Virus record (IMG/VR): IMGVR_UViG_3300027976_000037
Span: 1 to 62,139 of that record
Strand: one strand, 5' to 3'
DNA: 62,139 bases
Origin: a virus
Taxonomy: Duplodnaviria; Caudoviricetes
The notes beneath the pieces are model-generated. The model worked only from the letters and a program-made list of their open reading frames with translations. It had not been told where the DNA came from and made no database searches. Positions 45 through 61,965 of this stretch are shown here, one piece after another. Position 1 is the stretch's first letter. Each line of letters starts with the position of its first letter. A program made the translations under genes and the position numbers.

Positions 45-121
45 GTGTCCATAGCACAACAGAATAGTGCGGCGCTTTCCTAAAGCGTCAGGTGGGGGTT
101 TGAATCCCTCTGGACACACCA
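45..121 (+). tRNA. tRNA-Arg(CCT)
   Basis: GTGTCCA/TGGACAC acceptor, anticodon loop TTCCTAA, TTTGAAT T-loop, encoded CCA. Confidence 0.9.
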
Positions 122-132
122 TTTTATTCACG

Positions 133-211
133 GCTTGGTAACTCTGTGGTTTCAGAACATTCGTTTGTTAAACGAAAGCTTATGCAGGTTCGAGTCCTGT
201 TGTCGGTACCA
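133..211 (+). tRNA. degenerate tRNA-Asn(GTT)
   Basis: TTCGT-TTGTTAA-ACGAA anticodon arm, GCAGGTTCGAGTCCTGT T-arm, CCA end; acceptor stem pairs poorly. Confidence 0.55.
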
Positions 212-265
212 GTTAATTTAGAAAAAGTCTATTTATAGTCACTGGTGTTTATATTTATAAGCATC

Positions 266-862
266 ATGAGCGTACGCACCGATAGAAACTTTAAATCATA
301 CGACGGAGTACAAGAAAACGTAAGCGACGTCACGCTGGACCCCGTGGCTCAAGGTTGGGGTGTATTTGTAGATGGAAAATTTGTCAAGCCGGATTGGTCC
401 GATACTTGTAAATTTTGGAAACGTAATAAATTGAAGTTCGAGAATTTCGTCATCATCCGTGGCGGCTTAGAAGATGTTGTTGATATCAACAACGACTGTG
501 TAGGAAACACTTTTTCGAAATTTGTTATCATGCAAGCTGGCGACACTTACGTATTAACCCTAAAAGGTGATACATCAAATAATACCTTGGAAGATTGGTT
601 GATTTACGGCAAGGGCGGCAAGACGGTTGACATCGAAATTGGCAACTGGTCATCATACAATTTTGGTCGCTGCACCGGCAACAAGTTTATTAACTGGCGG
701 CGCGAAGACGGTGAGCCAATTCGGTATGCTTACCGAATTGGTTGCAAACCAACATTCGTTCGCACCAACACCAAACACATTTGGTGGTTGAGTATTGGAC
801 TAACCTTCTACTGGTGGTTCAAGTTCGTAAAACATCGCGTCTTTAAGATTGCTGATAAGTGA
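266..862 (+). CDS. hypothetical protein (possible beta-helix-like region, hydrophobic C-terminus)
   Basis: Long ORF; ATG at 266 lies 6 nt after an ATATTTATA motif. Confidence 0.75.
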   Translation: MSVRTDRNFKSYDGVQENVSDVTLDPVAQGWGVFVDGKFVKPDWSDTCKFWKRNKLKFENFVIIRGGLEDVVDINNDCVGNTFSKFVIMQAGDTYVLTLKGDTSNNTLEDWLIYGKGGKTVDIEIGNWSSYNFGRCTGNKFINWRREDGEPIRYAYRIGCKPTFVRTNTKHIWWLSIGLTFYWWFKFVKHRVFKIADK

Positions 863-1020
863 ACTACCGACCCTCTAAAGAAGAGTCGGCTTCAACGTAA
901 CTTTTTATAGTATCGTTGGATTTTTTCCGCTTCATTGAATTCGGCTTGACAATCATCTTGCGAAGATCATCAGAGGTCAATTTCTCCACGGACTTAGATT
1001 CGGACGGTTCCCGTCCTATT
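839..1020 (-). ncRNA. TnpB omega/reRNA scaffold with guide (TTATCAGCAATCTTAAAGAC)
   Basis: Overlaps the tnpB 3' end and right-end hairpin; guide inferred as the flank just beyond TCAC; 5' boundary approximate. Confidence 0.65.
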
Positions 1021-2261
1021 TTATCTTTTGCCAATAAATTGACAAAAGCAAATTTCTTTATATTACCAGCGGCCAGAACATCTCGGTCATGGACTTTTCC
1101 ACAAGAACATTTCCACGTTCTATCGGATAGTTTTAGATTTTGATTGATCTTACCGCAAGAACACATTTTTGACGATGGTTCAAATCTTCCAATTGTCAGA
1201 AGATTGGTTCCATACCAATCGGATTTATAAGTTAGGAACGAAATGAATTGCCCCCAACCAACGTCTCCAATTGATTTGGATAACTTACGATTTTTCATCA
1301 TGTTTTTTATAGATAAGTCTTCGAGGCAGATCGTTTGGTTCTCACGAACTAACTTTGAACTTAATTTATGATGAAAATCTTTTCTACTATTAGAAATTTT
1401 TGCGTGGATATTAGAAACTCGTTTCTTCCACAATTCTCTCTTTTTTGACCCTAGTTTTTTCTTTGACAAAATTCGTTGCTTCTTGGACAACAGTTTTTCG
1501 TATTTTTTTAGAAGTTTTGGATTTGAATATTTGTTTCCGTTTGAATCCGTCACAAATGTTGAAATTCCAAGATCAATTCCAATTGAATTCTCCAATGTTG
1601 GAATTGATTTATCTTTTTTCTTTATTTTAGTTTCAACTCTCAATGATGCAAAATATTTCCCCCTTGAATTCTTGGATATAAAAATTGATCCAACTTCTCC
1701 AACAACTTTTCTGTGAAAAATACACTTGATTGGTTCTTTGATCTTTGGAATTGAAATATTTGATTTTGAATAATCCACATCAAATCCTTGTGGAATTTGA
1801 AACGATTTTTTAGATATATGTTTACTTTTGAAATTTGGATACTTAGCGATCTTCTTAAAAAATCTAGAAAATGCACTATCCAAATCCCACAGTGATTGTT
1901 GAACGGATTGTGAATTAACTTCCCTTAAAAACAAATATTTGGAGTGTTTAAGTTCCTTGACCATTTCCATTAATTTTGTAGCAGTTATAGATTTTCCGGT
2001 TTCTTGATAAGTCTTATTCTTTAATTCTAGTCCCAAATTGTAGACAAACCGACAACAACCAAAATGCTTCTCCAAAAGAATTTCTTGTTCTTTTGTTGGA
2101 TAAATTCTAAACTTATATCCTTTGATTATTGTGTCCACTATGATAAATAGCATAGACTTTACAAAACATTCAATTTTTTTGTAGAAAAGTGAATAATAAT
2201 TCAAATTTAGCACAATTCATCCCACCGACTAAAGATCGGTGGGCTTTCTTGTGTCATTTCG
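859..2261 (-). mobile_element. IS200/IS605-family (IS1341-like, tnpB-only) element
   Basis: Minus strand left end TTAC|N14-AAAG-CCCACCGATCTTTAGTCGGTGGG; right end GAAG-CCGACTCTTCTTTAGAGGGTCGG-TAGT-TCAC|; no tnpA in the window. Confidence 0.9.
864..2153 (-). CDS. tnpB: RNA-guided endonuclease TnpB
   Basis: N-terminal YKFRIYPT HTH, RuvC-I GIDLG, RuvC-II LEDL, Zn ribbon CSCG..CSCG, RuvC-III DRDVLAAGNI; start ATG 2153 or GTG 2138. Confidence 0.95.
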   Translation of the reverse strand: MLFIIVDTIIKGYKFRIYPTKEQEILLEKHFGCCRFVYNLGLELKNKTYQETGKSITATKLMEMVKELKHSKYLFLREVNSQSVQQSLWDLDSAFSRFFKKIAKYPNFKSKHISKKSFQIPQGFDVDYSKSNISIPKIKEPIKCIFHRKVVGEVGSIFISKNSRGKYFASLRVETKIKKKDKSIPTLENSIGIDLGISTFVTDSNGNKYSNPKLLKKYEKLLSKKQRILSKKKLGSKKRELWKKRVSNIHAKISNSRKDFHHKLSSKLVRENQTICLEDLSIKNMMKNRKLSKSIGDVGWGQFISFLTYKSDWYGTNLLTIGRFEPSSKMCSCGKINQNLKLSDRTWKCSCGKVHDRDVLAAGNIKKFAFVNLLAKDKIGREPSESKSVEKLTSDDLRKMIVKPNSMKRKKSNDTIKSYVEADSSLEGR

Positions 2262-2270
2262 GTAAAAAAC

Positions 2271-2346
2271 GGGTCGGTAGCTCAGTGGACATATCGGCAC
2301 TTTGTTAAAGTGATGTGCGTGGGTTCGAATCCCACCCGTCCCTCCA
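2271..2346 (+). tRNA. tRNA-Asn(GTT), atypical D-arm
   Basis: GGGTCGG/CCGTCCC acceptor, loop TTGTTAA, GTGGGTTCGAATCCCAC, CCA. Confidence 0.75.
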
Positions 2347-2365
2347 TTTTTAACCCAACACAACT

Positions 2366-2596
2366 ATGAGTAGAACAGAGCGAACAAAAGATTACTATTA
2401 TGATCCAGAACGTTCCCCATTGTGGAAACAAACAGCTGATAAAAAACACTGGTACAAACCCACTAAAGGTAAGTGGTTGGAAAGAATGCGTTCCGATAGC
2501 AGAGCCAATCATAGAAAAGCTATGGTCGGAATTGACGAAGACAATCAGATTGTTCTACCAGTAAGAAGAATGACCGATGAATGGAACTACAATTAA
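2366..2596 (+). CDS. hypothetical protein
   Basis: 76-aa ORF filling the gap between two tRNA genes. Confidence 0.65.
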   Translation: MSRTERTKDYYYDPERSPLWKQTADKKHWYKPTKGKWLERMRSDSRANHRKAMVGIDEDNQIVLPVRRMTDEWNYN

Positions 2597-2601
2597 TTTA
2601 C

Positions 2602-2743
2602 GGAAGCCTAGTTTAAGTAAAGAACACCAGCAAATACATGCTGGAGATACGTCGCGGGTAGTTTAATAAGTTGAGGAATACGTGCACTAAAACTCAATAC
2701 TGTTAACCCAGTCGCTAGGGTGAAATACCCGTGGCCTCCAGCA
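2602..2743 (+). ncRNA. tRNA-like RNA with 8-nt anticodon loop and ~60-nt insert before the T-arm
   Basis: GGAAGCC/GGCCTCC acceptor, GTTT/GAAC D-stem, CCAGC-AAATACAT-GCTGG arm, GGGT-GAAAT-ACCC T-like hairpin. Confidence 0.55.
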
Positions 2744-2755
2744 TTTAGAATACAA

Positions 2756-2831
2756 CAGAGTATAATGTAACCTGGTAGCATACTAGCCTCGGACGCTTTT
2801 AGTTTGGGTTCGAATCCCAATACTCTGACCA
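2756..2831 (+). tRNA. tRNA-Pro(CGG)
   Basis: CAGAGTA/TACTCTG acceptor, loop CTCGGAC, TTCGAAT, CCA. Confidence 0.85.
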
Positions 2832-2837
2832 ATTTAC

Positions 2838-2914
2838 GGTCCCATCTCCTAATGGTCATGGTACTTCGTCTACACCGAAGAATAATCTCAGTTCGACTCT
2901 GAGTGGGACTACCA
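2838..2914 (+). tRNA. tRNA-Val(TAC) with C33
   Basis: GGTCCCA/TGGGACT acceptor, CTTCG-TCTACAC-CGAAG arm, CCA. Confidence 0.75.
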
Positions 2915-2945
2915 TTTTTAAGTTGTATATACACTATTTATATAC

Positions 2946-3362
2946 ATGACATTGGAAGACATTGAAAAAGTACTGAACGATAATGGATTCAAGAAGGTGA
3001 AGAAAATCATTAGTGATTCCACTTATGCTCGTCCTACGTCGAATTACCTCAACGGAAAATATTATACATTTTACCGCGCTTGGCTGACCGAACACAATCT
3101 CAATCGATGGAAAGCCAAGTGGGATTGTGATAATTTCGCCGCAACGTATTATGTGTTTGCTCAGATGTGTCACTTCAAGTCTGAGCGGGAGGAACAAGGG
3201 ATTGCAGTCGGTATGCTCTTTTATCATCAGGCGAACGGTGGTGGTCATGTTATAAATCTGGTCATTACAGAAAAGGGATTGACGGCAATTGAGCCACAGA
3301 CCGGTGATGAAGTCAGACTCACTGATGGTGAGAAGTCCGGCGCTTCATTAATATACTTTTAA
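2946..3362 (+). CDS. papain/transglutaminase-like cysteine hydrolase
   Basis: WDCDNFA, GHVIN and IEPQ motifs (Cys-His-Glu type triad). Confidence 0.6.
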   Translation: MTLEDIEKVLNDNGFKKVKKIISDSTYARPTSNYLNGKYYTFYRAWLTEHNLNRWKAKWDCDNFAATYYVFAQMCHFKSEREEQGIAVGMLFYHQANGGGHVINLVITEKGLTAIEPQTGDEVRLTDGEKSGASLIYF

Positions 3363-3365
3363 AAT

Positions 3366-3491
3366 ATGAAATCGAAACTATTAATCCTACTCCTGTTTTT
3401 GCTCATGTTTGCCGGTGGTTGCGTTACGGCACCGCTCACGCCAGACACAGAATTTCCTACCCCTGATTATGTGGAGGATGTCGCACAATGA
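3366..3491 (+). CDS. small lipoprotein (41 aa)
   Basis: MKSKLLILLLFLLMFAGGC signal and lipobox, Pro-rich tail; stop overlaps the next ATG. Confidence 0.6.
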   Translation: MKSKLLILLLFLLMFAGGCVTAPLTPDTEFPTPDYVEDVAQ

Positions 3492-3772
3492 AAAAACAAA
3501 GACTTCGTGATAGTAAGAAGGTAATCGCCTTGGGCATTGCTTTACTCAATCTCAACATTATATTTTTGGTCAGTGTCTTTAAAAGCGCTGAGACTACTGT
3601 GGTCATTCAGATGATGACCGCGATTCTGTTTTTAGTTGGTATCTACACCGGTGTCCAAGGTGGCATTGATATGATACAATCAAATAAAATGGAAGTAGAA
3701 AAGTCGGATAAGACAGAAACAAAAATCACTAAAAACTATGAGCACAAGATGGACTACGTAGATGATAACTAA
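3488..3772 (+). CDS. two-TM membrane protein, holin-like
   Basis: Basic N-terminus, two hydrophobic helices, charged C-terminus. Confidence 0.55.
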   Translation: MKKQRLRDSKKVIALGIALLNLNIIFLVSVFKSAETTVVIQMMTAILFLVGIYTGVQGGIDMIQSNKMEVEKSDKTETKITKNYEHKMDYVDDN

Positions 3773-3956
3773 TTTCAGCATAGAAGAAGAGGTTCAATGT
3801 CTCTCATCAATCTCGTAGGGATTACACATGGTGTAGAAGTTCAAGGCCGCACACTGTGCTGAAAACAATTTTAGCGTCGGCGCTGGAAGCTGGGACTTCG
3901 AAAATCCCTAGTAGAAACGCACTTGTCCGAGGTCATATCAAGGTAGCTCTGTGTAA

Positions 3957-4334
3957 TGGTCCGGTTGGTATAAGGGACATTGGTGTGATAGTTCTTGGGA
4001 ACTCACGTGGGTGATGTATGCATTGGACGCTGGTACGAAATTCAAGCGAAACACAACGGGTTTTGATTATGAGTTTGGAGGAAAGCGATTGAAATATTAT
4101 CCAGATTTTGAATTGGATGATGTTGATTATTTAGAAATTAAGGGGTACAATTCTCCACAATAGGAGGCCAAAATGACGTGGTTTCCAAAAAAATTGTCGG
4201 TCGTGGGCCGAGAAGAAATCGCGCCGTTCATTGAATACGCAAAAAAGAAACACGGAAATAATTTTGTTAGTTTATACGAGGATAGCAAAGTCGCGAGGTG
4301 CGACCGCAACTTGGAAAGTTGTAGGAGCGGCTAA
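3957..4334 (+). pseudogene. 5'-truncated PD-(D/E)XK (TnsA-like) homing endonuclease
   Basis: Hand translation GWYKGHWCDSSWEL...YYPDF...YLEIKGY with in-frame TAG at 4161; no start codon. Confidence 0.8.
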
Positions 4335-4370
4335 ACACCGCTTGAGTTTCGAGTACTCTGTTTTCCGCCA
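4280..4370 (+). tRNA. tRNA-Ser(GGA), 8/4 fold
   Basis: GGATAGCA/TGTTTTCC acceptor, GTCGC/GCGAC D-stem, loop TTGGAAA, long variable arm, G73, CCA. Confidence 0.85.
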
Positions 4371-4374
4371 TTTC

Positions 4375-4521
4375 TGAGGTAGTAGTTTAGTGGGAAAAAC
4401 GCTGATGATAGCAATACGAAAATACGCGTGAAACTTTCTTCATAAGGGGTCAATCCGCCGAGCATAGTTATAAGCCTTGAATACGATATCAGATACGGGA
4501 TTCGATTTCCCCGCCTCGACA
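4375..4521 (+). ncRNA. tRNA-like RNA with ~80-nt insert in the anticodon loop
   Basis: TGAGGT/GCCTCG acceptor, GTTT-AGTGGGAA-AAAC D-arm, CTGAT...ATCAG stem, GGGA-TTCGATT-TCCC T-arm. Confidence 0.55.
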
Positions 4522-4549
4522 ATTTTTACTTGGGTGCCTAATTAGTACC

Positions 4550-4680
4550 CGGAACCCCGGACATCATATGAGAGATAAGAATCCTCCACAAAATGGTGCC
4601 ACGTTAATGTGTGTTGAGTATGCCAAGCAATCTTGTGGTTGCCGCAGAGGGGCCGCCCAACGTGGAAGATACGGGTTCCG
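4550..4680 (+). ncRNA. unclassified structured RNA
   Basis: Closing helix CGGAACCC/GGGTTCCG; internal CATCAT/ATGGTG, CCACGTT/AACGTGG and GCAATC/GGTTGC stems; strand assumed from neighbours. Confidence 0.5.
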
Positions 4681-4686
4681 AATTTT

Positions 4687-4779
4687 GGAAGATTAATCAG
4701 CAAGGCGCTGAACTTGTTTGCTAAACAATGGGCTCGGTGTAAAAAGCCGGGTGGGCTTCGATTGCTCAGTCTTCCGCCA
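4687..4779 (+). tRNA. tRNA-Ser(GCT), 8/4-compatible
   Basis: GGAAGATT/AGTCTTCC acceptor, TCAGC/GCTGA D-stem, loop TTGCTAA, long variable arm, GCCA. Confidence 0.9.
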
Positions 4780-4785
4780 CTTTTT

Positions 4786-4875
4786 GGAAGATAAATTTGC
4801 CGGGGCGCAAACCGTGTCTTGAAAACACGTGGGCGGTGATGAGCCGCTAGGGTTCGAGACCTTTGTCTTCCGCCA
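4786..4875 (+). tRNA. tRNA-Ser(TGA), 8/4 fold
   Basis: GGAAGATA/TGTCTTCC acceptor, CGTGT-CTTGAAA-ACACG arm, long variable arm, GCCA. Confidence 0.9.
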
Positions 4876-4925
4876 CTTTATAATGTTGACAACGACCAAA
4901 TTTATGTCATAGTGAATGAAAATCT

Positions 4926-5234
4926 ATGAAAAAACTATTCGCTCTGTTGCTACTTGTATCAGTCACCGCTCTTGTCGGTTGTGTTGGTTGGACTTTACCT
5001 CAACTCGCTACTTCCGACGACGTAAGCGAGATTCGTGTAATCTTGTCAGAGCAAGGATACGTCCTTGCCGGAAACGTGGTCGAATTTTATGCATCGTCGT
5101 TTGCCCGTACCGACATAGTGTATGCCAAGGCTTACTTTCACGGGTCGATTGGGTTTGTTGTCATAAACAAAAGCAACAACCCTCCCACTGTCTCATGGTC
5201 GGCCACCAGAGATTTTAGGGTAGTCGAGGAATAA
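4926..5234 (+). CDS. lipoprotein of unknown function
   Basis: MKKLFALLLLVSVTALVGC lipobox; TTGACA at 4886 upstream. Confidence 0.75.
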   Translation: MKKLFALLLLVSVTALVGCVGWTLPQLATSDDVSEIRVILSEQGYVLAGNVVEFYASSFARTDIVYAKAYFHGSIGFVVINKSNNPPTVSWSATRDFRVVEE

Positions 5235-5240
5235 TTTTTT

Positions 5241-5454
5241 GGGCTTGTAACTCAGTTGATAGGGTATTTCGAGTGAAGAAAAATCCAAAAATATGGAGAC
5301 CAAATTGAATACTTTTGTAGAATATTACACGGGCCATGGAATTGCATAGAGTGATTGTTTCGCTGGCAGCGAAAATACAGATGGGAGCATTACCCATATG
5401 GTCCACCAATTTAGCCACCGAAGAAGTTGGGTTCGAATCCCACCCGGTCCACCA
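5241..5454 (+). tRNA. interrupted tRNA-Ala-like gene (outer shell of a nested pair)
   Basis: 5' half GGGCTTGTAACTCAGTTGATAGGGTATTTCG; 3' half CGAAGAAGTTGGGTTCGAATCCCACCCGGTCCACCA; G3-U70 pair; anticodon replaced by ~145 nt. Confidence 0.6.
5331..5408 (+). tRNA. tRNA-Ala(GGC), atypical T-loop
   Basis: GGGCCAT/ATGGTCC acceptor with G3-U70, TTTCG-CTGGCAG-CGAAA arm, ATGGG-AGCATTA-CCCAT, ACCA. Confidence 0.75.
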
Positions 5455-5546
5455 TTTACGGGCCTGTTGGCGCAAAAATTCTACGGTAACTCAGTTCGAT
5501 TCTGGGCGGGGGATCCATTTTCTTTATTATATTTAATATTTATAGA

Positions 5547-6221
5547 GTGATGATGAATGAAACATTTAACCCACAGTCGGTAACTTTTGAAGAAGTTCCG
5601 AGAGCCAAAGTTCGTGAGTTTATTCAGACTCACTACTTGGGTTCGTTTCCAGCCGTTTCATTGGCTTATGTTGGAATACTATACAACCAAAATTTAATCG
5701 GCGTTGTAATCTACGGAAGGACGTCAGCGCCTTCAGTTCAAAAATCAATTTTTAAACCAGATGTAAATGTGGATAATAAAGATATCTTGGAATTACAACG
5801 ACTTTTCATCATAGACGATGAAACACTTCTACCAAAAGAGGATAGAAAGAATCTTGCCGGTTTTTCAATATCACACGCAAACGATTTTGTAGTGAAGAAG
5901 TTTCCAAACGTTAAAGTTATCTTATCTTATTCAGACCCAGACCACCATCTAGGAACGGTTTATAAAGCAACTAATGCAATTTACCAAGGTCGAGGTGATA
6001 AGGTTCGCATGTTTAAAAGAGCTGATGGGAAGCTTATTAGAACAAATCGAGTTCAACCTGAAGAAAAGGGAGAGTTGGTATCCATGACAGGAAAAGACCG
6101 ATGGGTTTATCCCGTTGGCTCCACTTCACAGAAGAAGTGGGTTAAACGTAATTTAATCGACAGTGAACTGCAAGAGCTGATAACAATATCAGAAGCTCTT
6201 TGGAAACAATTTTGTGGTTAA
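5547..6221 (+). CDS. mom: Mom-like (GNAT-fold) DNA adenine-modification protein
   Basis: FIQTHY, ELQRLF and LSYSDPDHHLGTVYKATNAIYQG motifs. Confidence 0.75.
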   Translation: MMMNETFNPQSVTFEEVPRAKVREFIQTHYLGSFPAVSLAYVGILYNQNLIGVVIYGRTSAPSVQKSIFKPDVNVDNKDILELQRLFIIDDETLLPKEDRKNLAGFSISHANDFVVKKFPNVKVILSYSDPDHHLGTVYKATNAIYQGRGDKVRMFKRADGKLIRTNRVQPEEKGELVSMTGKDRWVYPVGSTSQKKWVKRNLIDSELQELITISEALWKQFCG

Positions 6222-6288
6222 GCTAAAGTAGACGAAGCCCACCATTGTATGATGGAGAAAGTTGGTGAAAGTCCAGCAACCGCGACCA
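6213..6288 (+). tRNA. tRNA-like gene with 8-nt anticodon loop (identity unclear)
   Basis: TGTGGTT/AACCGCG acceptor, CCA-TTGTATGA-TGG arm, GTTGG-TGAAAGT-CCAGC T-arm, ACCA. Confidence 0.55.
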
Positions 6289-6396
6289 ATTTATTCTTAT
6301 TAACTTGCCTACAATGTGGATATACGAGCGTCACGCTCAAACCGGGCAGAATCAATGGAAACGTTGAGAGTCCTCATTATAAAAATAAGAAAAACT

Positions 6397-6472
6397 GGGA
6401 CAGTAGTGAAATTGGATATCACCTTGCTCTACGAAAGCAATATTTTGGGTTCGAATCCCGACCGTCCCACCA
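6397..6472 (+). tRNA. tRNA-Arg(ACG)
   Basis: TTGCT-CTACGAA-AGCAA arm, canonical D and T arms, CCA. Confidence 0.9.
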
Positions 6473-6534
6473 CTTGAGCACGCGTAGTCGTGAAAATCGG
6501 GTGTAAACCGACGTGCTATAAAAATATCGGATTC

Positions 6535-6610
6535 GGCTCTTTAGCTCAACGATCAGAGCAGAGGACTCATAATCCTTTGGTTGTGGGTTTGAATCCCACA
6601 GGAGCCACCA
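6535..6610 (+). tRNA. tRNA-CAT (Ile2 or Met)
   Basis: GAGGA-CTCATAA-TCCTT arm, canonical cloverleaf, CCA. Confidence 0.9.
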
Positions 6611-6670
6611 ATTTGCCGTCGAAGTTCATATGGGTGAACGTCATATTAAAAATTACTTTTCATAAAACAT

Positions 6671-6755
6671 GCCTAGTTGGCTCAGTGGCAACAGCACCGC
6701 TTTCGTAAAGCGGCGAAGAAATTCTCCGTGGGTTCGAGTCCCACACTAGGCTCCA
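6671..6755 (+). tRNA. tRNA-Thr(CGT) with extended variable region
   Basis: GCCTAGT/ACTAGGC acceptor, CCGCT-TTCGTAA-AGCGG arm, 14-nt variable region, TCCA. Confidence 0.85.
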
Positions 6756-7150
6756 TTTTTTACTGAATATTTCCTATATCGTTTCCCCTTTGTTTTGTTA
6801 AATCCACGATGTGTGGACGTCAGGGAATGACAATTTGGACAAAGCGCAGTCAGGTTACTTTCTTGTGAATTGGACGCGTCACCATCAACGTGGTCGATTT
6901 CTAAACACGGTCTATTTGAAACGGGATGTCGCTCACCCCAACCACATTTAGAACATCTGTTATCAAATTTTTCTAATACGTAGTCCCGAACGACGGGATT
7001 TAGTACTAGCGCGACACCTCGATGGCCGGGGTTTAGCCCCTGTTTCCACTGCTCTATACTAATCTGTTTTCGGTGTGTTCACTGACAAACTGCGGAACAG
7101 TATTTGCGCCGATTTTGGATTTCTTTACCACATATGAGACAATTTTTCAT
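6746..7150 (-). pseudogene. HNH endonuclease with one in-frame TGA
   Basis: Hand translation MKNCLICG...CSAVCQ*THRK...CSKCGW...LEIDHVDGDASNSQESNLTALCPNCH; TGA at codon 24 (7079-7081). Confidence 0.85.
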
Positions 7151-7200
7151 ACATATAACTATATCTCATGTTAGCCTAACATGTGTTAGCACATAATAAT

Positions 7201-7315
7201 TTACACAGGCCAAACAGAGTTGCATCTGGTGGTCGTAAACCTAGAGGCCCGGTTAAGAGCCAAGCGTACATGCAATCGCTGGTAAACTCGGGGACGAAGA
7301 CTGCGGTCTGTGTGA
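7201..7315 (+). ncRNA. unclassified structured RNA
   Basis: 11-bp closing helix TTACACAGGCC/GGTCTGTGTGA with internal GTTGCAT/ATGCAAT stem. Confidence 0.5.
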
Positions 7316-7318
7316 TAT

Positions 7319-7394
7319 TGCCTTGTAGCGTAATGGTTATCGCAACTCTCTCTGAAAGAGTGGACTGAAGGTTCGAGTCCTTCCGAGGCAGCCA
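7319..7394 (+). tRNA. tRNA-Gln(CTG)
   Basis: TGCCTTG/CGAGGCA acceptor, ACTCT-CTCTGAA-AGAGT arm, GCCA. Confidence 0.9.
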
Positions 7395-7462
7395 ATTTAG
7401 TTGTTGACATTTTATAAACGACAGTTCATTATGAACTCTTGTTATTTGACATATAAATTTAC

Positions 7463-7554
7463 GGACATGTGGTGTAATGTAGCACCGCTAGTTTTATAAA
7501 CTAGGCGCACCCGATAGGTGCCGAGTGTGGGTTCAAGTCCCTCCATGTCTACCA
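7463..7554 (+). tRNA. tRNA with UAU anticodon (nominal Ile) and long variable arm
   Basis: GGACATG/CATGTCT acceptor, CTAGT-TTTATAA-ACTAG arm, GCACC-CGATA-GGTGC variable stem, ACCA. Confidence 0.85.
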
Positions 7555-7556
7555 AT

Positions 7557-7890
7557 TTTCAGAGTATGTGACCTTACGCGGGGCGAAAGTAAAACCTCGA
7601 GGAAGTTCGCTGCTGCTTAACTCGATGCTGGAAGAGCAATGCTGAATCGATGACAGTCATAGTGTCTGAGTCCAAATCAGAAGGGTCTATGGATCTCAAT
7701 CCTCAAGCGGTTCGTTATTACCACAAATCCGCAGTAACCTAAAAATCCTAGAGTATGTGAGTTATACGTTAATATAGGAAGGTCGGGGCCTCTTCTTGAA
7801 AAAGGAAGAACGGAATTTATTCCGTAGAGAAATGTAAGGTCAGGAGCTGAAAGGCTCTGGACAGAACAGCGGCTATAGCATATTTTGAAA
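7557..7890 (+). ncRNA. rnpB: RNase P RNA (divergent)
   Basis: P1 TTTCAGAGTATGT/GCATATTTTGAAA; CR-I-like GAGGAAGTTCGCTGC; CR-V-like ACAGAACAGCGGCTATA; complementary P4 strands. Confidence 0.8.
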
Positions 7891-7950
7891 ACATTTTAAA
7901 TATTAAGGTTTCGTTTGAAAGAAATCGTTAGTTCGAATATACTCATATAC

Positions 7951-8262
7951 ATGAAGTGTGAAAAATGTAATAATCAACACGATGGAAAATATGGTAGTGG
8001 AAGATTTTGCTCTTGTGAATGTGCTCGTTCTTTTTCAACCACAATTAAACGAGAAGAAATAAAAGTCGTGATTCTGTGGAATGGGAATTGGCATCGAAAA
8101 AAATTAATGAGAAAACATAGTGTAAAGCAGGTAAAGAACAGAGACAAAATTAAAATTTCGGAAATATTGAAAGCGGGTTATGCTGCGTACGTAATTGATG
8201 ATTATAGAAAATTCAATCGAAAGTTTGTAGAATCCGAATTTAACAAATTTATGGTGGGTTAG
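7951..8262 (+). pseudogene. internally deleted homing endonuclease remnant
   Basis: CEKC...GSGRFCSCECARSF Zn-finger joined directly to a WNGNWH...RDKIK..I...GY nuclease-type tail; catalytic core appears missing. Confidence 0.55.
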
Positions 8263-8327
8263 TTTATGTGGTAAAACTCTGGTTTCATAAGCCAAGATAG
8301 CGGATTCAAACGCCGCACTCACTTCCA
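8253..8327 (+). tRNA. tRNA-Met(CAT)
   Basis: GGTGGGT/ACTCACT acceptor, TGGT-TTCATAA-GCCA arm, CCA. Confidence 0.75.
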
Positions 8328-8342
8328 ATTTATAATAGATAT

Positions 8343-8418
8343 GCCTTGTAAGTTCTGATGGCGGAACAGGTTCTTGGTAAGAACACGGTGGCCAGTTCGA
8401 TTCTGACACAAGGCTCCA
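8343..8418 (+). tRNA. tRNA-Thr(GGT)
   Basis: GCCTTGT/ACAAGGC acceptor, GTTC-TTGGTAA-GAAC arm, TCCA. Confidence 0.85.
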
Positions 8419-8621
8419 CTATACGCTCGCCTGATAACTGGCATTGAGGTACTGATAAAACATGAATAACAATGAAAACTGCTCACACCAATCGCAGAAA
8501 GCAACAAGTGGCCAAGTTAAATAAAGGTTGGTGTGACAGTTGCGACCGGATTATTCGATGATAATCATTGATGCTTGTGTGGCACATCATCCAGTCTCGC
8601 TGAAAATCTAACAAACAATCT

Positions 8622-8707
8622 CCTCACATGGCGTAATGGTAGCCGCAGAGGTCTTAAAAACCTTTGGTAAATATACCGTGCCGGTTCGACTCCGGCTGTG
8701 AGGACCA
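8622..8707 (+). tRNA. tRNA-Leu(TAA)
   Basis: CCTCACA/TGTGAGG acceptor, GAGGT-CTTAAAA-ACCTT arm, long variable arm, ACCA. Confidence 0.9.
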
Positions 8708-8712
8708 CTTCT

Positions 8713-8797
8713 GGGCATGTGGATAAGGCAAGTTGGTACAACCGTCCGACTCAAAATCTTCTATCCTATATGGGTTTGAGTCCCTTCATGCCTACCA
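8713..8797 (+). tRNA. degenerate tRNA-Leu(CAA)
   Basis: GGGCATG/CATGCCT acceptor, GA-CTCAAAA-TC weak anticodon stem, ACCA. Confidence 0.5.
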
Positions 8798-8868
8798 CGC
8801 ATCCCTTGGAAGGGTGTCGAAAGACCTCATCCAAGCCCCTCAACCCGTTTGGGCTGAGGTCATTTTAT

Positions 8869-8944
8869 GGGAGACTGGCGCAACGGTTAGCGCAGCTCGT
8901 TTACACCGAGAAGGTTCACGGTTCGAATCCGTGGTTTCCCACCA
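8869..8944 (+). tRNA. tRNA-Val(TAC)
   Basis: Canonical cloverleaf, CTCG-TTTACAC-CGAG arm, CCA. Confidence 0.92.
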
Positions 8945-9213
8945 TTTAACCCACAAACTAGGAGTAAGAAAATATGACACAACTAAACGCAAGACAATAA
9001 AAATAACCGATAAGCATAGACAAGACTATAAATTGTATGAAAAATTTTCAACCATGACTATTATGTGGCCATGTAATGAAACAACTGACCCAGATGGGTA
9101 TTCGCCAATTGAGTGTTTTGTTTATAACAAAAAACTCAATTTTTCACGTCTTTAATGTTTTTCGGTGATATATATAGACTTAGAGACAACTCAAATTTAA
9201 CCCACCAAACATT

Positions 9214-9528
9214 ATGGAAATCGTACAAACAGTCATCGGCCTATTAGTAGTAGGAGCAGTTGCATTCTTCATCTGGAAGAACATGAAAAAGGCAGAAGCA
9301 ACAACACCAACACCGGGTCCATTCGTTCCTCCGGGTCCAGCACCAACACCGACGGGCGGCACATCAGTTTATGACGTGTTCTCACCGGGCGGAGTCCAAG
9401 GTGATGTCACCTATTATAACGCAGCTGGTCAGCAAGTCACTGATATCATCACACCTCCTTCAATCCGCATCATCGCACAAGACGGTATGCCAATCGACGG
9501 TAATTATGGTATCATCAACAAACTGTAA
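9214..9528 (+). CDS. membrane-anchored protein with Pro/Thr-rich linker
   Basis: N-terminal TM helix, TPTPGPFVPPGPAPTPT linker. Confidence 0.75.
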   Translation: MEIVQTVIGLLVVGAVAFFIWKNMKKAEATTPTPGPFVPPGPAPTPTGGTSVYDVFSPGGVQGDVTYYNAAGQQVTDIITPPSIRIIAQDGMPIDGNYGIINKL

Positions 9529-9551
9529 TTGACTATTCAAGTTTAATTCTC

Positions 9552-9582
9552 AAATCCCATACCAAAAGGTGTGGGATTTTTT
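9552..9582 (+). terminator. intrinsic terminator
   Basis: AAATCCCATACC-AAAA-GGTGTGGGATTT followed by T tract. Confidence 0.7.
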
Positions 9583-9584
9583 GT

Positions 9585-9659
9585 GGACCTGTGGTGAAAC
9601 GGATATCACCTTGCGCTTCGAACGCAAAGTTCTGGGTTCGATTCCCAGCGGGTCTACCA
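9585..9659 (+). tRNA. tRNA-Arg(TCG)
   Basis: TTGCG-CTTCGAA-CGCAA arm, canonical fold, CCA. Confidence 0.92.
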
Positions 9660-9721
9660 CTATGAATGACGAAGAAAAATTATTAAAACAAATATTTGGA
9701 GAAAAATCAAATGCTCTTTAC

Positions 9722-9770
9722 GACTCCGTTAGCAGAAAGCCCACCGATCTTTAGTCGGTGGGATGAATGC
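9722..9770 (+). mobile_element. orphan IS200/IS605 left end
   Basis: TTAC|N14-AAAG-CCCACCGATCTTTAGTCGGTGGGATGAAT; hairpin identical to the left end of the 859-2261 element. Confidence 0.85.
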
Positions 9771-9963
9771 GTTAGCCCTGATTCTATGTGAAATTGATTG
9801 GAACACGGTATATAAAAAAGGAATTTTTTGTGAAAATGACTTGGACATGTTCTCAGAGTTAAAAAAAATAGTACAAGCGAATGAGGTTGATGATGAAAGA
9901 TATTATCGGTGAGGCTCATTCTAAGGAGGGAAGGCCATCCTCCGACGGATGATTCTCCGCATT

Positions 9964-10054
9964 GGAAGATTAACCAAGCAGGGTCTTGGAACTGTTTCGA
10001 AAACAGATTGCTCGGTGAAAGCCGAGTGGGCTTCGATTGCTCAGTCTTCCGCCA
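9964..10054 (+). tRNA. tRNA-Ser(CGA), 8/4-compatible
   Basis: GGAAGATT/AGTCTTCC acceptor, CTGT-TTCGAAA-ACAG arm, long variable arm; 3' end identical to tRNA-Ser(GCT). Confidence 0.9.
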
Positions 10055-10164
10055 TTTGGGATAACCGCTACAATGATCGGTATTTAGGTCTTATACCAAG
10101 GAATCATGACCTAGTAAATGTAAATCCTGTCCCAATTAATTTCCCCAATTCTAAAAAGAAATGT

Positions 10165-10210
10165 TTGACAACCAACTGATAGTGTGTATAGTTGGTGATG
10201 TTCTTTAACA
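10165..10210 (+). promoter_or_regulatory. sigma70-like promoter followed by boxA-like element
   Basis: TTGACA-N16-TATAGT, then TGTTCTTTAACA at 10199-10210. Confidence 0.65.
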
Positions 10211-10211
10211 C

Positions 10212-10382
10212 TTTGAAGTTAGTTCAGTTCAAGATTATGTCGTGAAAACCCGGTAGGCTTACAGAATCGATCATTCTGGCCAAAAGGAAAGTAATTTAGC
10301 GAGAACGCAGGATTTGGAAAAGACTGTCCAAACCATCAGACATTGCGACACCCCCAAGTTAAAAGGGTGGATTAACTTCAAA
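10212..10382 (+). ncRNA. unclassified ~170-nt structured RNA
   Basis: Closing helix TTTGAAGTTAGTTCA/TGGATTAACTTCAAA; TGTCGTGA/TTGCGACA, CAGAAT/ATTCTG and TTTGGA/TCCAAA stems; no convincing ORF. Confidence 0.6.
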
Positions 10383-10385
10383 TAT

Positions 10386-10457
10386 GCGGTTTTAGTGTAT
10401 TGTAGCACGGTGGGCCTCCAGTCCATAGGATCCGGTCATTCCGAGAAAACCGCTCCA
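10386..10457 (+). tRNA. divergent tRNA-Gly(TCC)
   Basis: GCGGTTT/AAACCGC acceptor, U73, GTGGG-CCTCCAG-TCCAT arm; degenerate T-arm. Confidence 0.6.
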
Positions 10458-10459
10458 TC

Positions 10460-10532
10460 TGCAGGATGGTGTAATGGTAGCACGCCACGCTCATAATGTG
10501 GAGATGAAGTTCGACTCTTTCTCCTGCACCCA
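10460..10532 (+). tRNA. tRNA-Met(CAT)
   Basis: TGCAGGA/TCCTGCA acceptor, CCACG-CTCATAA-TGTGG arm, CCA. Confidence 0.85.
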
Positions 10533-12489: not shown

Positions 12490-12888
12490 GGGCCTGTTCT
12501 TGGATTCGACTTTATGAGTTGAACTTAGAACGCAAGCGCAGGTGGTAAACATCCTGCATAATCCTGATTACAAAAACATAAATGCAAAGAGAAATCTAGC
12601 AAAGCTCACAGTTCTGTCCCTCGTTCGTAAGAACGTGAACAGCGCTTACGCTGTCGCTGCCTAAGGGTAGCCCGTTTATCTATTCAACGCAGATAGAGTA
12701 GAATAAACGTCAAACATCTGCTGATATGTTCCCTATGAGATATGAGAGTCGGTAATGGGGGAGAAAGTTACAAGATTCTTAACCTTCGTAAAGCGTACAG
12801 CTAATTACGATTGTATCTACGGTACTATGCTTGTAAATGTCTAATGGGCAAATCTTAAAACACGCGGGTTCGACTCCCGCCAGGTCCA
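12490..12888 (+). ncRNA. ssrA: tmRNA
   Basis: 5' GGGCCTG...GGATTCGAC; 3' GCGGGTTCGACTCCCGC-CAGGTCCA with G3-U70; tag ORF 12584-12664 AKRNLAKLTVLSLVRKNVNSAYAVAA*. Confidence 0.92.
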
Positions 12889-60996: not shown

Positions 60997-61965
60997 ATGA
61001 TAAATGCTAAAATACTACTAGACTCAGTTAATCCGGTTGGAACCCGAATAACTACTTGGATACTAAAATATCCCAGATTTGTTCACTCGGAGGTGATGAA
61101 ACACCGCGTTTACTCACGTAATGTATCGTCTTCTCGATCAATTCCGGTTAAGAAAATGTTGGCCGATGTGAAAGAGAATCCAGCCACGCCGGTCTTTTGG
61201 GGTAAGAACCAAAGTGGAATGCAGTCGGTGGAGGAATTAGATGACATCAATGCAACTATCAAGGAATACTATAATGAACCTCTCAATGGGAGTTCTACCG
61301 CCGACAGTGTTAGATACATCACACCACGAGCAGCAGCAAAGAAGGCATGGCTCGCTGCGCGAGATAATGCGGTAAAATCCGTTGAGGCCATGTGTGAACT
61401 CAATTTGCATAAGCAAGTCGCCGTCCGGTTGCTTGAGCCATGGACGCACATTACAGTCCTACTAACGGGCACCGACTTTGAAAACTTCTTTGCGCTTCGT
61501 GCCCACAAAGACGCCCAACCCGAATTCCAAAAATTAGCTTATCTCATGTTGGACTTGTATCAGCAGAATGTGCCCGAAAAATTGGAGGCCGGTCAGTGGC
61601 ACATCCCATTCGGCGATACCATAGCATACAAGCGCATTTTTGAAACAAACTCTTGGATAGAAGAAACCGACGGAGCCGCGCTTAATTTGGGTGGTGATAT
61701 GGACTCAACCTTGCTTGAATATAAACTTAAAATCGCTACTGCTAGGTGCGCTCGTGTATCATATCTTACATTTGAAGGCAAGGACGATTACAACGCTGAT
61801 ATAACATTAGCAGACCAACTCGCTTCATCCGGCCATTGGAGCCCATTTGAACACTGTGCACAGGCTATGGATTCGTCACGGCCTTCCGGCAACTTCGTCG
61901 GATGGACACCAACACACCCCCACCATAAGGTGAAGCATTTAGGATACAATATGCGTAAGTTATAA
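60997..61965 (+). CDS. thyX: FAD-dependent thymidylate synthase-like protein
   Basis: PRFVHSEVMKHR..SRN..SSRSIP, RLLEPW, NFFALR...AQPE, ARCARVSY and HWSPFEH motifs. Confidence 0.85.
   Translation: MINAKILLDSVNPVGTRITTWILKYPRFVHSEVMKHRVYSRNVSSSRSIPVKKMLADVKENPATPVFWGKNQSGMQSVEELDDINATIKEYYNEPLNGSSTADSVRYITPRAAAKKAWLAARDNAVKSVEAMCELNLHKQVAVRLLEPWTHITVLLTGTDFENFFALRAHKDAQPEFQKLAYLMLDLYQQNVPEKLEAGQWHIPFGDTIAYKRIFETNSWIEETDGAALNLGGDMDSTLLEYKLKIATARCARVSYLTFEGKDDYNADITLADQLASSGHWSPFEHCAQAMDSSRPSGNFVGWTPTHPHHKVKHLGYNMRKL

What the first reader, a model, noticed from the sequence alone, without database searches (positions are those of the whole stretch)
5241..5454. Nested tRNAs: a complete tRNA-Ala(GGC) inside the anticodon loop of another Ala-type tRNA
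The outer 5' half (5241-5271) and 3' half (5419-5454, with T-arm and CCA) pair into a G3-U70 acceptor and a TTTCG/CGAAG anticodon stem. They enclose about 60 nt of spacer plus a complete tRNA-Ala (5331-5408) that also has a TTTCG/CGAAA stem. Inference: processing of the inner tRNA by RNase P and RNase Z would leave a two-piece, anticodon-less but potentially alanylatable outer RNA. A recombination scar is the alternative.
Basis: partly seen in the sequence, partly recalled or inferred. Interest (0 to 1): 0.75.

Follow-up and report, generated by a model that had tools for sequence, protein, structure and literature searches.

The report
Broken tRNA-Ala copies around one survivor
In the tRNA gene cluster of an uncultured large freshwater phage, one complete but oddly shaped alanine tRNA gene sits between leftover pieces of other alanine tRNA copies, which looks like one tRNA nested in another but is most likely wreckage from gene duplication and recombination.

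Summary
A 5' tRNA piece lies at 5241-5271, 59 nt of spacer follow, then a full cloverleaf tRNA-Ala(GGC) at 5331-5408, 10 nt, and a 3' tRNA piece with CCA at 5419-5454. The two outer pieces can pair with each other. The arrangement is identical in the contigs of four sequencing runs, so it is not a misassembly.

The functional "nested, two-piece tRNA" reading is not supported.
- The 5' piece runs straight on into AGTGAAGA. That matches positions 37-44 of the canonical tRNA-Ala(GGC) of the only related phage, so this piece carries its own 3' stem strand and has lost positions 32-36, including the anticodon.
- The 3' piece is preceded by its own hairpin strand. It aligns with a stand-alone, anticodon-less tRNA-Ala-like remnant in the relative.
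- A fourth mosaic piece (5460-5517) repeats 11 nt of the 5' piece.
- The relative has one ordinary, uninterrupted tRNA-Ala(GGC), and its array also holds aberrant tRNA-like pieces.

Best reading (about 0.7): recombination and decay debris around one surviving, structurally deviant tRNA-Ala(GGC). Whether the outer pieces were once a single gene split by an insertion cannot be settled. Interest is low.

The parts
5241..5279 (+). Copy 1, the 'outer 5' half' plus its continuation. It holds the acceptor 5' strand, the D arm, TTTCG, and then AGTGAAGA, which corresponds to tRNA positions 37-44. Positions 32-36, including the anticodon, are deleted.
   Evidence: Sequence. Its 5' half is the best match (24 of 31) to the 5' half of the relative's tRNA-Ala(GGC) among 48 tRNAs. 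The 8-nt colinear match starts at the first base of the 'spacer': an equal or longer match anywhere arose in 61 of 5000 shuffles, and at that place in 0 of 5000.
5280..5330 (+). A/T-rich stretch between copy 1 and the inner tRNA. It may be the decayed 3' part of copy 1 (ATATGG..CCA at 5289-5302). It holds a weak sigma-70-like match at 5294-5323 that ends 8 nt before the inner tRNA.
   Evidence: R1 aligns 5244-5302 at only 5.3 bits, within background. The promoter-like sites number 3, against 1.7 +/- 1.3 in shuffles, so they are not significant.
5331..5408 (+). Inner tRNA-Ala(GGC). It is a complete cloverleaf with G3-U70, A73, CCA and loop CTGGCAG. The D loop (GCATAGAGT, no GG) and the T loop (AGCATTA, no TTC) are non-canonical.
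   Evidence: ARAGORN calls it at the 90% threshold only. R1 gives 13.5 bits. The minimum-free-energy fold is the cloverleaf, z -1.77, with 12 of 200 shuffles as stable. It shares the anticodon arm and ATGGTCCACCA with the relative's tRNA-Ala(GGC), which lies at the matching point of the array, 292 nt after tRNA-Ser(UGA) and before tRNA-Thr(CGU).
5409..5454 (+). Copy 3, the 'outer 3' half' with its leader. TTTAG (5410-5414), CCAC and CGAAG form a degenerate hairpin with a 4-nt loop. A 3-nt variable region, the T arm, CCGGTCC and ACCA follow. The acceptor 5' strand and the D arm are missing.
   Evidence: R1 gives 21.1 bits, all from the T arm, the 3' acceptor strand and CCA. It aligns without gaps to element iii of the relative (TTCCG-CTAG-CGGAA-AAC-T arm-CTAGTCC-ACCA), 34 of 45 columns by my count. 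Both are followed by TTTAC-GG(G)CCTG.
5460..5517 (+). A fourth, mosaic tRNA-like piece. It starts like the inner tRNA (ACGGGCC), repeats 11 nt of copy 1's D-arm region (GTAACTCAGTT, 5486-5496) fused to a T loop, and ends in CGGGGGA-T-CCA with no matching 5' strand.
   Evidence: R1 gives 10.2 bits. The exact repeats are families D4 and D9. No complementary 5' acceptor strand was found upstream.
4926..5234 (+). Upstream neighbour: a 102-aa ORF with a lipoprotein-type N-terminus (read by eye). It has no counterpart in the relative's array.
   Evidence: no Pfam family; no tblastn hit in the relative's array.
5547..6221 (+). Downstream neighbour: a Mom-family ORF of 224 aa. In the relative its homologue lies elsewhere in the array, so this part of the array has been rearranged.
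   Evidence: Pfam PF25680, E 1.8e-22. tblastn places the homologue at reverse-complement positions 12293-12858 of the relative's array.

Best explanation
The locus is debris from duplication, recombination and decay of tRNA-Ala(GGC) genes inside the tRNA array of a large phage.

One copy, 5331-5408, keeps a complete cloverleaf. It is the only candidate working alanine tRNA in the window. The pieces on either side of it are dead.
- Copy 1 (5241-5279 and beyond) has lost positions 32-36, including the anticodon, and has no recognisable T arm.
- Copy 3 (5409-5454) has lost its acceptor 5' strand and D arm, and has a 4-nt loop where the anticodon loop should be.
- A fourth piece (5460-5517) is a mosaic of the others.

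The outer pieces complement each other because they are paralogues of one tRNA type, not because they work together.

On history, I favour separate tandem copies over a single gene split by an insertion of about 140 nt between the GAAGAA repeats at 5275 and 5420, at roughly 60:40. On either history the outer RNA has no anticodon and several structural defects.

Inferred, not shown: the array is transcribed as a precursor, RNase P and 3' trimming release the inner tRNA, and the flanking pieces are degraded.
For: 1. The only related phage with an array (record G002; its helicase is 77% identical) has the same tRNA order. It carries one ordinary uninterrupted tRNA-Ala(GGC), which ARAGORN calls at default and R1 scores at 60.4 bits.
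2. Right after TTTCG, copy 1 continues with AGTGAAGA, which is positions 37-44 of that tRNA. This is the longest common substring and sits at the first base of the 'spacer'. An equal or longer match anywhere arose in 61 of 5000 shuffles, and at that place in 0 of 5000.
3. Copy 3 aligns with its leader to G002 element iii, a 62-nt stand-alone tRNA-Ala-like remnant. Its loop CTAG equals CT[GGC]AG without the anticodon. Both share a 3-nt variable region and the downstream TTTAC-GG(G)CCTG.
4. Exact repeats tie the fourth piece to copy 1 (11 nt) and to the inner tRNA (7 nt).
5. The G002 array holds at least six aberrant tRNA-like elements, so such debris is common in this lineage.
6. The neighbourhood is rearranged. 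The Mom-like gene lies elsewhere in G002 and ORF102 is absent there. A transposase ORF sits in the array.
7. The outer pieces carry defects: T6 x C67, T49 x C65, a 3-nt variable region, and A at position 19 (read). ARAGORN calls the joined pieces for 0 of 8 junction choices at default.
8. The 217-nt unit is no more stable than shuffles, z +0.70, with 155 of 200 shuffles as stable.
9. Pseudogenes in tRNA arrays are on record (passages in PMC4758250 and PMC8421152).
Against: - The outer pieces do pair 6 of 7 and 5 of 5, which is rare for random half combinations (2 of 2256). G7 and C66 co-occur only in these two pieces within the locus.
- The minimum-free-energy fold of 5241-5457 does contain the outer acceptor (5 pairs), the outer anticodon stem and the full inner cloverleaf.
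- The two outer pieces together resemble G002's tRNA-Ala(GGC) more than the inner tRNA does (24/31 and 28/38 against 20/34 and 26/41). That fits one old resident gene split by an insert.
- Evidence that copy 1 has its own 3' end is weak (5.3 bits).
- The match of copy 3's leader to element iii outside the T arm and the CCA end is only about 10 of 20 positions.
- Only one relative could be compared, and no expression data exist.
- The inner tRNA keeps 21 of 21 pairs, and three of its stem pairs differ on both sides from G002's tRNA-Ala(GGC). So at least that part is under selection and the locus is not all junk.
Confidence: 0.7

Rival explanations
1. True nesting by a single insertion, with a dead outer gene. 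On this reading one resident tRNA-Ala(GGC) gene first lost positions 32-36. It was then split after about position 45 by a segment of about 140 nt (5281-5419) that carries the deviant inner tRNA-Ala(GGC). The segment is bounded by the direct repeat GAAGAA (5275-5280 and 5420-5425). The outer gene is a pseudogene and the inner one replaces it.
For: - The outer pieces together are closer to the relative's tRNA-Ala(GGC) than the inner tRNA is.
- They pair 6 of 7 and 5 of 5.
- The GAAGAA repeats can be read.
- This history needs fewer events than three tandem copies with separate truncations.
- The inner tRNA's D and T arms look foreign next to the array consensus.
Against: - A 6-nt repeat in 360 nt is expected by chance (my estimate is about 10 such pairs). 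It also equals homologous positions 40-45 of paralogous copies.
- No mobile element, integrase or homing endonuclease gene adjoins the locus.
- This history leaves unexplained the hairpin-like TTTAG-CCAC leader of copy 3 and its alignment to G002 element iii.
- No form without the insert was seen in the 4 runs.
Confidence: 0.28
2. One reading: a functional nested unit. RNase P and 3' processing excise the inner tRNA and leave a two-piece RNA held together by the outer acceptor and anticodon stems. AlaRS charges it through G3-U70. It would serve as a non-decoding alanyl carrier or as a decoy.
For: - G1-C72, G2-C71, G3-U70, A73 and CCA are present, with an intact canonical T arm.
- The outer stems appear in the minimum-free-energy fold.
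- AlaRS recognises acceptor helices without an anticodon (recalled: Hou and Schimmel 1988; Francklyn and Schimmel 1989; not read here).
- Anticodon-less Ala-type elements occur in both phages.
Against: - Copy 1 has its own adjacent 3' stem strand, so a local hairpin competes with the long-range stem.
- The pieces carry mismatches at 6:67 and 49:65 and a 3-nt variable region.
- The arrangement is absent from the only relative.
- The G002 counterpart, element iii, has 2 mismatches in its own acceptor stem, and its 5' part is missing in the window, so no unit is conserved.
- The fold energy is no better than shuffles.
- The mosaic fourth piece points to ongoing scrambling.
Confidence: 0.05
3. The inner tRNA is also dead, so the whole locus is non-functional debris.
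For: - It has no G18-G19, and its T loop is AGCATTA in place of TTCGAAT, the only such T loop among the 14 aligned tRNAs.
- Rfam lists no RF00005 match at E<=10.
- It falls below ARAGORN's default threshold.
Against: - It keeps 21 of 21 stem pairs.
- Against G002's tRNA-Ala(GGC), pairs 10-25, 11-24 and 50-64 are changed on both sides with pairing kept, and positions 5 and 6 are changed from wobble to Watson-Crick pairs. The alignment in the D arm is uncertain.
- The anticodon loop is identical to the canonical one.
- It is the only Ala tRNA in the window.
Confidence: 0.3
4. Misassembly or a chimeric contig.
For: None found.
Against: Contigs of 4 runs from 4 studies carry the stretch with 0 differences and no joints. 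Three of them span 4600-6300 in one piece. These runs may include the source sample.
Confidence: 0.01

Closest known systems
tRNA pseudogenes and fragments in tRNA gene arrays of bacteria and phages
   Same: The locus is a dense one-strand tRNA array with sub-threshold, truncated and mosaic tRNA copies next to intact ones. Arrays holding pseudogenes are on record (passages in PMC4758250 and PMC8421152).
   Different: Here the fragments happen to lie so that a 5' piece and a 3' piece of the same tRNA type bracket a complete copy. That mimics a nested gene. I found no printed description of this layout in 4 full-text searches.
Partial 3' duplications of tRNA genes left by integrating elements (att-site scars)
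   Same: A complete tRNA-Ala(GGC) is followed closely by a second copy of the T arm, 3' acceptor strand and CCA. Seven metagenome loci show this for bacterial tRNA-Ala(GGC) at spacings of 67-204 nt.
   Different: In those scars the repeat is usually an exact copy of the tRNA's own 3' end. Here the two 3' ends match 15 of 19 and the halves 27 of 41. No integrase is adjacent, and there is also a 5' piece upstream. That integrases target the anticodon and T loops is recalled (Williams 2002), not read here.
Disrupted tRNA genes: group I introns in bacterial anticodon loops; archaeal and algal intron-bearing, split and permuted tRNAs
   Same: A tRNA body is interrupted near the anticodon arm by a long insert (reviews listed; abstracts only seen).
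   Different: Rfam shows no group I intron signal at E<=10. The 147-nt insert is shorter than known tRNA group I introns (recalled: about 200 nt or more). No junction restores a sensible anticodon loop. Protein-dependent tRNA splicing is not known in bacteria.
tmRNA tRNA-like domain
   Same: An alanine-type acceptor with G3-U70, a T arm and CCA, without an anticodon. The phage encodes a true tmRNA at 12490-12888.
   Different: Only the T arm matches the tmRNA models (10.9 and 13.8 bits against a gathering score of 47). There is no tag reading frame and there are no pseudoknots.

Membership tests
Canonical elongator tRNA (Rfam RF00005), tested on the inner element 5331-5408 | Four-stem cloverleaf with a 7-nt anticodon loop, U33 and a purine at 37 | tested here: met
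   All 21 pairs form. The loop is C-T-G-G-C-A-G.
Canonical elongator tRNA (Rfam RF00005), tested on the inner element 5331-5408 | Conserved elbow nucleotides: G18-G19 in the D loop and T54-T55-C56 with A58 in the T loop | tested here: not met
   The D loop is GCATAGAGT. The T loop is AGCATTA, which keeps only C56.
Canonical elongator tRNA (Rfam RF00005), tested on the inner element 5331-5408 | Score at or above the curated or default thresholds of tRNA finders | tested here: not met
   No RF00005 match at the gathering score or at E<=10. ARAGORN calls it only at 90% of its threshold. R1 gives 13.5 bits, above the 9.2-bit background.
Alanine identity (AlaRS substrates), tested on the inner element and on the joined outer pieces | G3-U70 in a paired acceptor stem with A73 and CCA | tested here: met
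   Read from the sequence for both. Charging itself cannot be tested here. The identity rule is recalled, not read.
Intron-bearing tRNA (outer pieces as exons) | Removing the insert restores a complete tRNA with a 7-nt anticodon loop and a defined anticodon | tested here: not met
   Across 8 junction choices the assigned anticodon varies (GCC, TCC, TGC, TGA), none has U33, and 0 of 8 are called at default. By colinearity with the relative's tRNA, positions 32-36 are deleted.
Intron-bearing tRNA (outer pieces as exons) | The insert is a recognisable self-splicing intron (group I core) | tested here: not met
   No intron family appears among the 10 Rfam matches at E<=10 in 5100-5650.
Intron-bearing or split tRNA | The arrangement is conserved in relatives | tested here: not met
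   The only relative with an array has an uninterrupted tRNA-Ala(GGC). Six searches found no other syntenic relative; one search returned only 2 non-syntenic transposase loci.
Integration (att) scar at a tRNA gene | The downstream fragment is a near-exact repeat of the intact tRNA's 3' end, with an integrase or element between or beside them | tested here: not met
   The 3' ends match 15 of 19. Only 10 nt lie between them, and neither neighbouring ORF is an integrase.
tRNA pseudogene or fragment | Clear homology to a tRNA together with disabling lesions | tested here: met
   Copy 1 matches the homologous 5' half 24 of 31 and lacks positions 32-36. Copy 3 has a T arm and CCA but lacks the 5' strand and D arm. 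The fourth piece is a mosaic.

The most novel reading that the evidence does not exclude
These large phages may keep alanine-type tRNA-like RNAs that cannot decode. Anticodon-deleted elements occur in both genomes: copy 1 lacks positions 32-36, and copy 3 and G002 element iii have 4-nt loops that equal the anticodon loop without GGC. The inner tRNA-Ala(GGC) has perfect stems but no canonical elbow. Such RNAs could be charged by AlaRS through G3-U70 and used outside normal translation. They might act as alanyl donors for a transferase, as decoys for tRNA-targeting host defences, or as processing signals within the array. A precedent, recalled and not read here, is the staphylococcal glycine tRNAs with altered D and T loops that serve cell-wall synthesis.
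Probability: 0.06. Interest if true: 0.75.

Novelty: new member of a known kind. Interest (0 to 1): 0.2.

Why it matters
If the nested reading were right, it would be the first tRNA gene carrying another tRNA, and a natural anticodon-less, chargeable RNA in a phage. The evidence points instead to ordinary gene-array turnover.

The case is still useful as a caution. In dense phage tRNA arrays, paralogous fragments can bracket an intact copy and mimic a split or intron-bearing gene. The locus also shows how fast such arrays are remodelled between two phages whose helicases are 77% identical. Finally, it flags one deviant tRNA-Ala(GGC) whose paired stems suggest it is still used.

Tried and rejected
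Searches for relatives.
- Close relatives of the locus were sought with the Mom-like protein in viral and metagenome contigs (none).
- The exact 5' piece was sought in viral contigs (none).
- The transposase ORF gave 2 loci, but it is mobile and they are not syntenic.
- An in-array protein alignment found only G002 again.
- A tRNA-Ala(GGC) lineage pattern in viral contigs found only G002.
I examined the 80 loci that were listed (80 matches, 47 distinct sequences). Most are ordinary 76-77-nt tRNA-Ala(GGC) genes and none has the inner element's T loop. I did not test those loci for upstream 5' pieces.
- blastn of 4700-6400 against cultured phages gave no match. Their helicases are at most 38.7% identical.
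- The second relative, G001 (39 kb), has no tRNA match.

Expression. No RNA holder was listed among the sequencing runs, so expression could not be examined.

Ideas considered and dropped.
- Group I intron, tmRNA-like RNA and other Rfam families: no support.
- A permuted tRNA, with the 3' piece followed by GGGCCTG at 5460: rejected because no D arm or anticodon arm follows.
- An att-type scar: rejected, see the membership test.
- The promoter-like site before the inner tRNA is not above shuffles.
- The repeats D3 and D5, which link the locus to the start of the Mom gene, are at chance level by my estimate.

Supplementary files of papers were not consulted.

Full report
Setting. The window is a 62-kb fragment of an uncultured virus record, estimated about 20% complete. 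Positions 45-10532 carry a one-strand array of tRNA genes. ARAGORN at default and 23 at 90% of its threshold. A tmRNA follows at 12490. All 12 well-scoring class I tRNAs that I aligned encode their CCA end. Four sequencing runs, from freshwater and an estuary, hold the stretch. No cultured phage is close: blastn of the region finds nothing, and the best helicase match is 38.7% identical.

The observation. The inner element 5331-5408 folds into a perfect cloverleaf as its minimum-free-energy structure (z -1.77). It has G3-U70, A73, CCA and the loop CTGGCAG. Its D loop has no GG and its T loop is AGCATTA, so it misses the default thresholds. ARAGORN finds it only at 90%, Rfam lists no tRNA match at E<=10, and a model built from 12 of the window's tRNAs (R1) gives it 13.5 bits. 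That still stands above the background of the 48 kb outside the array, where the best hits are 18.3 and then 9.2 bits. Of the 7 extra ARAGORN calls at 90%, 6 lie in the array. The outer 3' piece scores 21.1 bits, all of it from the T arm, the 3' acceptor strand and CCA. The outer 5' piece alone scores 5.3 bits. Joined by script, the two outer pieces are called a tRNA at 90% for 8 of 8 junctions and at default for 0 of 8, and the anticodon assigned changes with the junction. The assembly is sound. Three runs carry 4600-6300 in one contig with no difference, a fourth from another study carries 5091-5540, and no joints appear. These runs may include the source sample.

Is the pairing of the outer pieces meaningful? 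I took 48 tRNAs from this phage and its relative; one tRNA without CCA was dropped. Only 2 of 2256 non-cognate combinations of a 5' half with a 3' half reach acceptor >=6 and anticodon stem 5. So the fit is not random. However, the 5' half of the relative's tRNA-Ala(GGC) pairs with the outer 3' piece equally well (6 and 5). Outer-with-inner combinations give 5 and 5. The U/G-rich outer 5' piece also pairs 6 and 5 with 2 of the 48 unrelated 3' halves. A metagenome scan showed that GGGCC...TTCG-CTGGCAG-CGAAG...GGTCCACCA is the common bacterial tRNA-Ala(GGC) design. The complementarity therefore shows that both outer pieces are of tRNA-Ala(GGC) type, not that they belong to one gene.

The relative. 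A helicase search found two related viral records. One of them, G002 (80 kb), has an array with 41 R1 matches. Its gene order parallels the window: Arg(CCU), Asn, Asn, Pro(CGG), Val(UAC), two shared ORFs, Ser(GGA), Ser(GCU), Ser(UGA), then Thr(CGU), Gln(CUG), Ile(UAU), Met, Thr(GGU), Val(UAC), Arg(UCG) and Ser(CGA). After Ser(UGA), G002 has Arg(GCG), Arg(CCG) and then one canonical, uninterrupted tRNA-Ala(GGC) (60.4 bits). The window's inner tRNA shares with it the whole anticodon arm and the 3' end ATGGTCCACCA. The window's outer 5' piece is the best match among 48 tRNAs to its 5' half (24 of 31). The inner 5' half matches only 20 of 34.

What undoes the nested reading. First, the 'spacer' begins with AGTGAAGA. 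This equals positions 37-44 of G002's tRNA-Ala(GGC): the last two loop bases, the 3' stem strand TGAAG, and A44. It is the longest common substring of spacer and tRNA, and it sits at the colinear place. An equal or longer match anywhere arose in 61 of 5000 shuffles, and at that place in 0 of 5000. The 5' piece is therefore not a half. It is a tRNA-Ala(GGC) copy that lost positions 32-36, anticodon included, and it keeps its own 3' stem strand. Second, the 10-nt linker plus the 3' piece reads TTTAG-CCAC-CGAAG-AAG-T arm-CCGGTCC-ACCA. This aligns without gaps to a stand-alone 62-nt element in G002 (element iii, 27.3 bits), which reads TTCCG-CTAG-CGGAA-AAC-T arm-CTAGTCC-ACCA. Its loop CTAG is the anticodon loop without GGC. 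Both elements have an unusual 3-nt variable region, and both are followed by TTTAC-GG(G)CCTG. By my count 34 of 45 columns agree. Outside the T arm and the CCA end only about 10 of 20 agree, so this shows common descent or common design, not constraint. Third, a fourth piece (5460-5517, 10.2 bits) starts like the inner tRNA (ACGGGCC). It repeats exactly 11 nt of the outer 5' piece (GTAACTCAGTT) fused to a T loop, and it ends in CCA with no partner strand. By my estimate about 0.015 exact 11-mer repeats are expected by chance in 361 nt. Fourth, the G002 array is itself littered with aberrant tRNA-like elements. These include a 5' two-thirds fragment, elements of 106-143, 134 and 117 nt with duplicated or displaced arms, and two mini elements of 62 and 65 nt. 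Fifth, the neighbourhood has been reshuffled. The Mom-family gene next to the locus lies elsewhere in G002's array, the upstream ORF has no counterpart there, and a transposase gene sits in the window's array between two Asn copies. Sixth, the outer pieces have their own defects: mismatches at 6:67 and 49:65, a 3-nt variable region, and A at position 19. The 217-nt unit is no more stable than shuffled sequence (z +0.70).

Most likely explanation. The locus is a cluster of tRNA-Ala(GGC)-derived copies made and broken by recombination within the array. The middle copy alone is complete. I cannot decide between two histories. One is three or four tandem copies with separate truncations. The other is a single anticodon-deleted gene split after about position 45 by a segment of about 140 nt that carries the inner tRNA, bounded by GAAGAA repeats. 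The hairpin-like leader of copy 3 and its match to element iii favour the first. The greater likeness of the two outer pieces to G002's tRNA, and the smaller number of events needed, favour the second. On either history the outer RNA has no anticodon. Processing of the inner tRNA by RNase P and 3' trimming is inferred from general knowledge, not shown.

The inner tRNA. Against G002's tRNA-Ala(GGC), pairs 10-25, 11-24 and 50-64 are changed on both sides with pairing kept. Positions 5 and 6 changed from wobble to Watson-Crick pairs (the D-arm alignment is uncertain). That, together with 21 of 21 pairs and an unchanged anticodon loop, argues for selection on the cloverleaf. The loss of the elbow nucleotides is unexplained. 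It is the only Ala tRNA in the window, although the array runs off the contig start where G002 has tRNA-Ala(UGC).

Comparison with known systems. The closest known kinds are tRNA pseudogenes in arrays (passages read in PMC4758250 and PMC8421152) and att-type partial duplications at tRNA genes, of which 7 metagenome loci gave examples. It is not a group I intron tRNA, not a split or permuted tRNA, and not tmRNA-like (reviews seen as listings and abstracts only). Four full-text searches gave no paper describing a tRNA nested in a tRNA, in phages or elsewhere. The term 'nested tRNA' had no occurrence in the 15 of 29 papers that one search listed.

Verdict. The functional interpretation is not supported, and the scar alternative is supported. 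Confidence in the debris reading is about 0.7, and in a functional two-piece RNA about 0.05. Interest is 0.2. The boldest reading still open is that these phages keep non-decoding, alanine-type tRNA-like RNAs for some purpose. I put that at about 0.06.

Noticed in passing
window 7463-7554; locus L046 (G002 array, reverse-complement positions 9877-9968): The tRNA-Ile(UAU) is 92 nt long in both phages. It has a well-paired extra arm (GCACC...GGTGC) between the anticodon arm and the T arm. A long-variable-arm design is unusual for isoleucine, and here it is conserved (78% identity over 418 nt including the flank). Several other tRNAs of 84-87 nt (Lys, His, Trp, Met in G002; Thr(CGU) of 85 nt at window 6671-6755) also carry extra arms.
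   Followed up: partly
window 864-2213 (-): A 449-aa transposase ORF (phrog_506, E 1.3e-122) lies inside the tRNA array. It sits between a degenerate tRNA-Asn(GUU) copy (135-207, or 140-211 at R1 29.4 bits) and an intact one (2271-2346).
   Followed up: partly
locus L046 (G002:62000-80238), reverse-complement positions about 5850-6273 and 7506-7762: The related phage's array holds at least six aberrant tRNA-like elements. These are a 5' two-thirds fragment with an Arg(UCU)-type arm, a roughly 143-nt element whose acceptor strands lie far apart, a 62-nt anticodon-less Ala-type mini element (iii), a 65-nt mini element with a perfect 7-bp acceptor stem and T arm (iv), a 134-nt element with a perfect acceptor stem, and a 117-nt element with two T arms.
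   Followed up: partly
window 12490-12888: A phage-encoded tmRNA (Rfam 88.6 bits) with the predicted tag AKRNLAKLTVLSLVRKNVNSAYAVAA lies just past the tRNA array.
   Followed up: no
window 61982-62044: A tRNA-like match (R1 18.3 bits, + strand) lies far from the array, right after the ORF at 60997-61965. It is the only hit above 10 bits outside the array.
   Followed up: no
window 140-211, 4280-4370, 4687-4779, 6213-6288, 8713-8797, 9964-10054, 10386-10457: These are further sub-threshold tRNA or tRNA-like genes in the array (R1 6-29 bits, or ARAGORN at 90%). Several have counterparts in G002: Ser(GGA), Ser(GCU), Ser(CGA), and a Gly(UCC)-like one at 10386-10457.
   Followed up: partly
window 5547-6221: A Mom-family ORF (PF25680, E 1.8e-22) is embedded in the tRNA array. 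Its homologue in G002 is also in the array but at a different place, next to tRNA-Phe.
   Followed up: partly
loci L049, L087, L156 and L073, L081, L099 (metagenome contigs): Other dense tRNA arrays in metagenomes carry deviant tRNA-Ala(GGC) genes. One group has a T loop TGCGACT with G at position 55. The other has an unusual D arm.
   Followed up: no
loci L048, L057, L062, L070, L110/L135, L152 (metagenome contigs): Bacterial tRNA-Ala(GGC) genes are followed 67-204 nt downstream by a second copy of their T arm, 3' acceptor strand and CCA. In L070 this happens twice in tandem. This is the pattern expected from integration scars.
   Followed up: no
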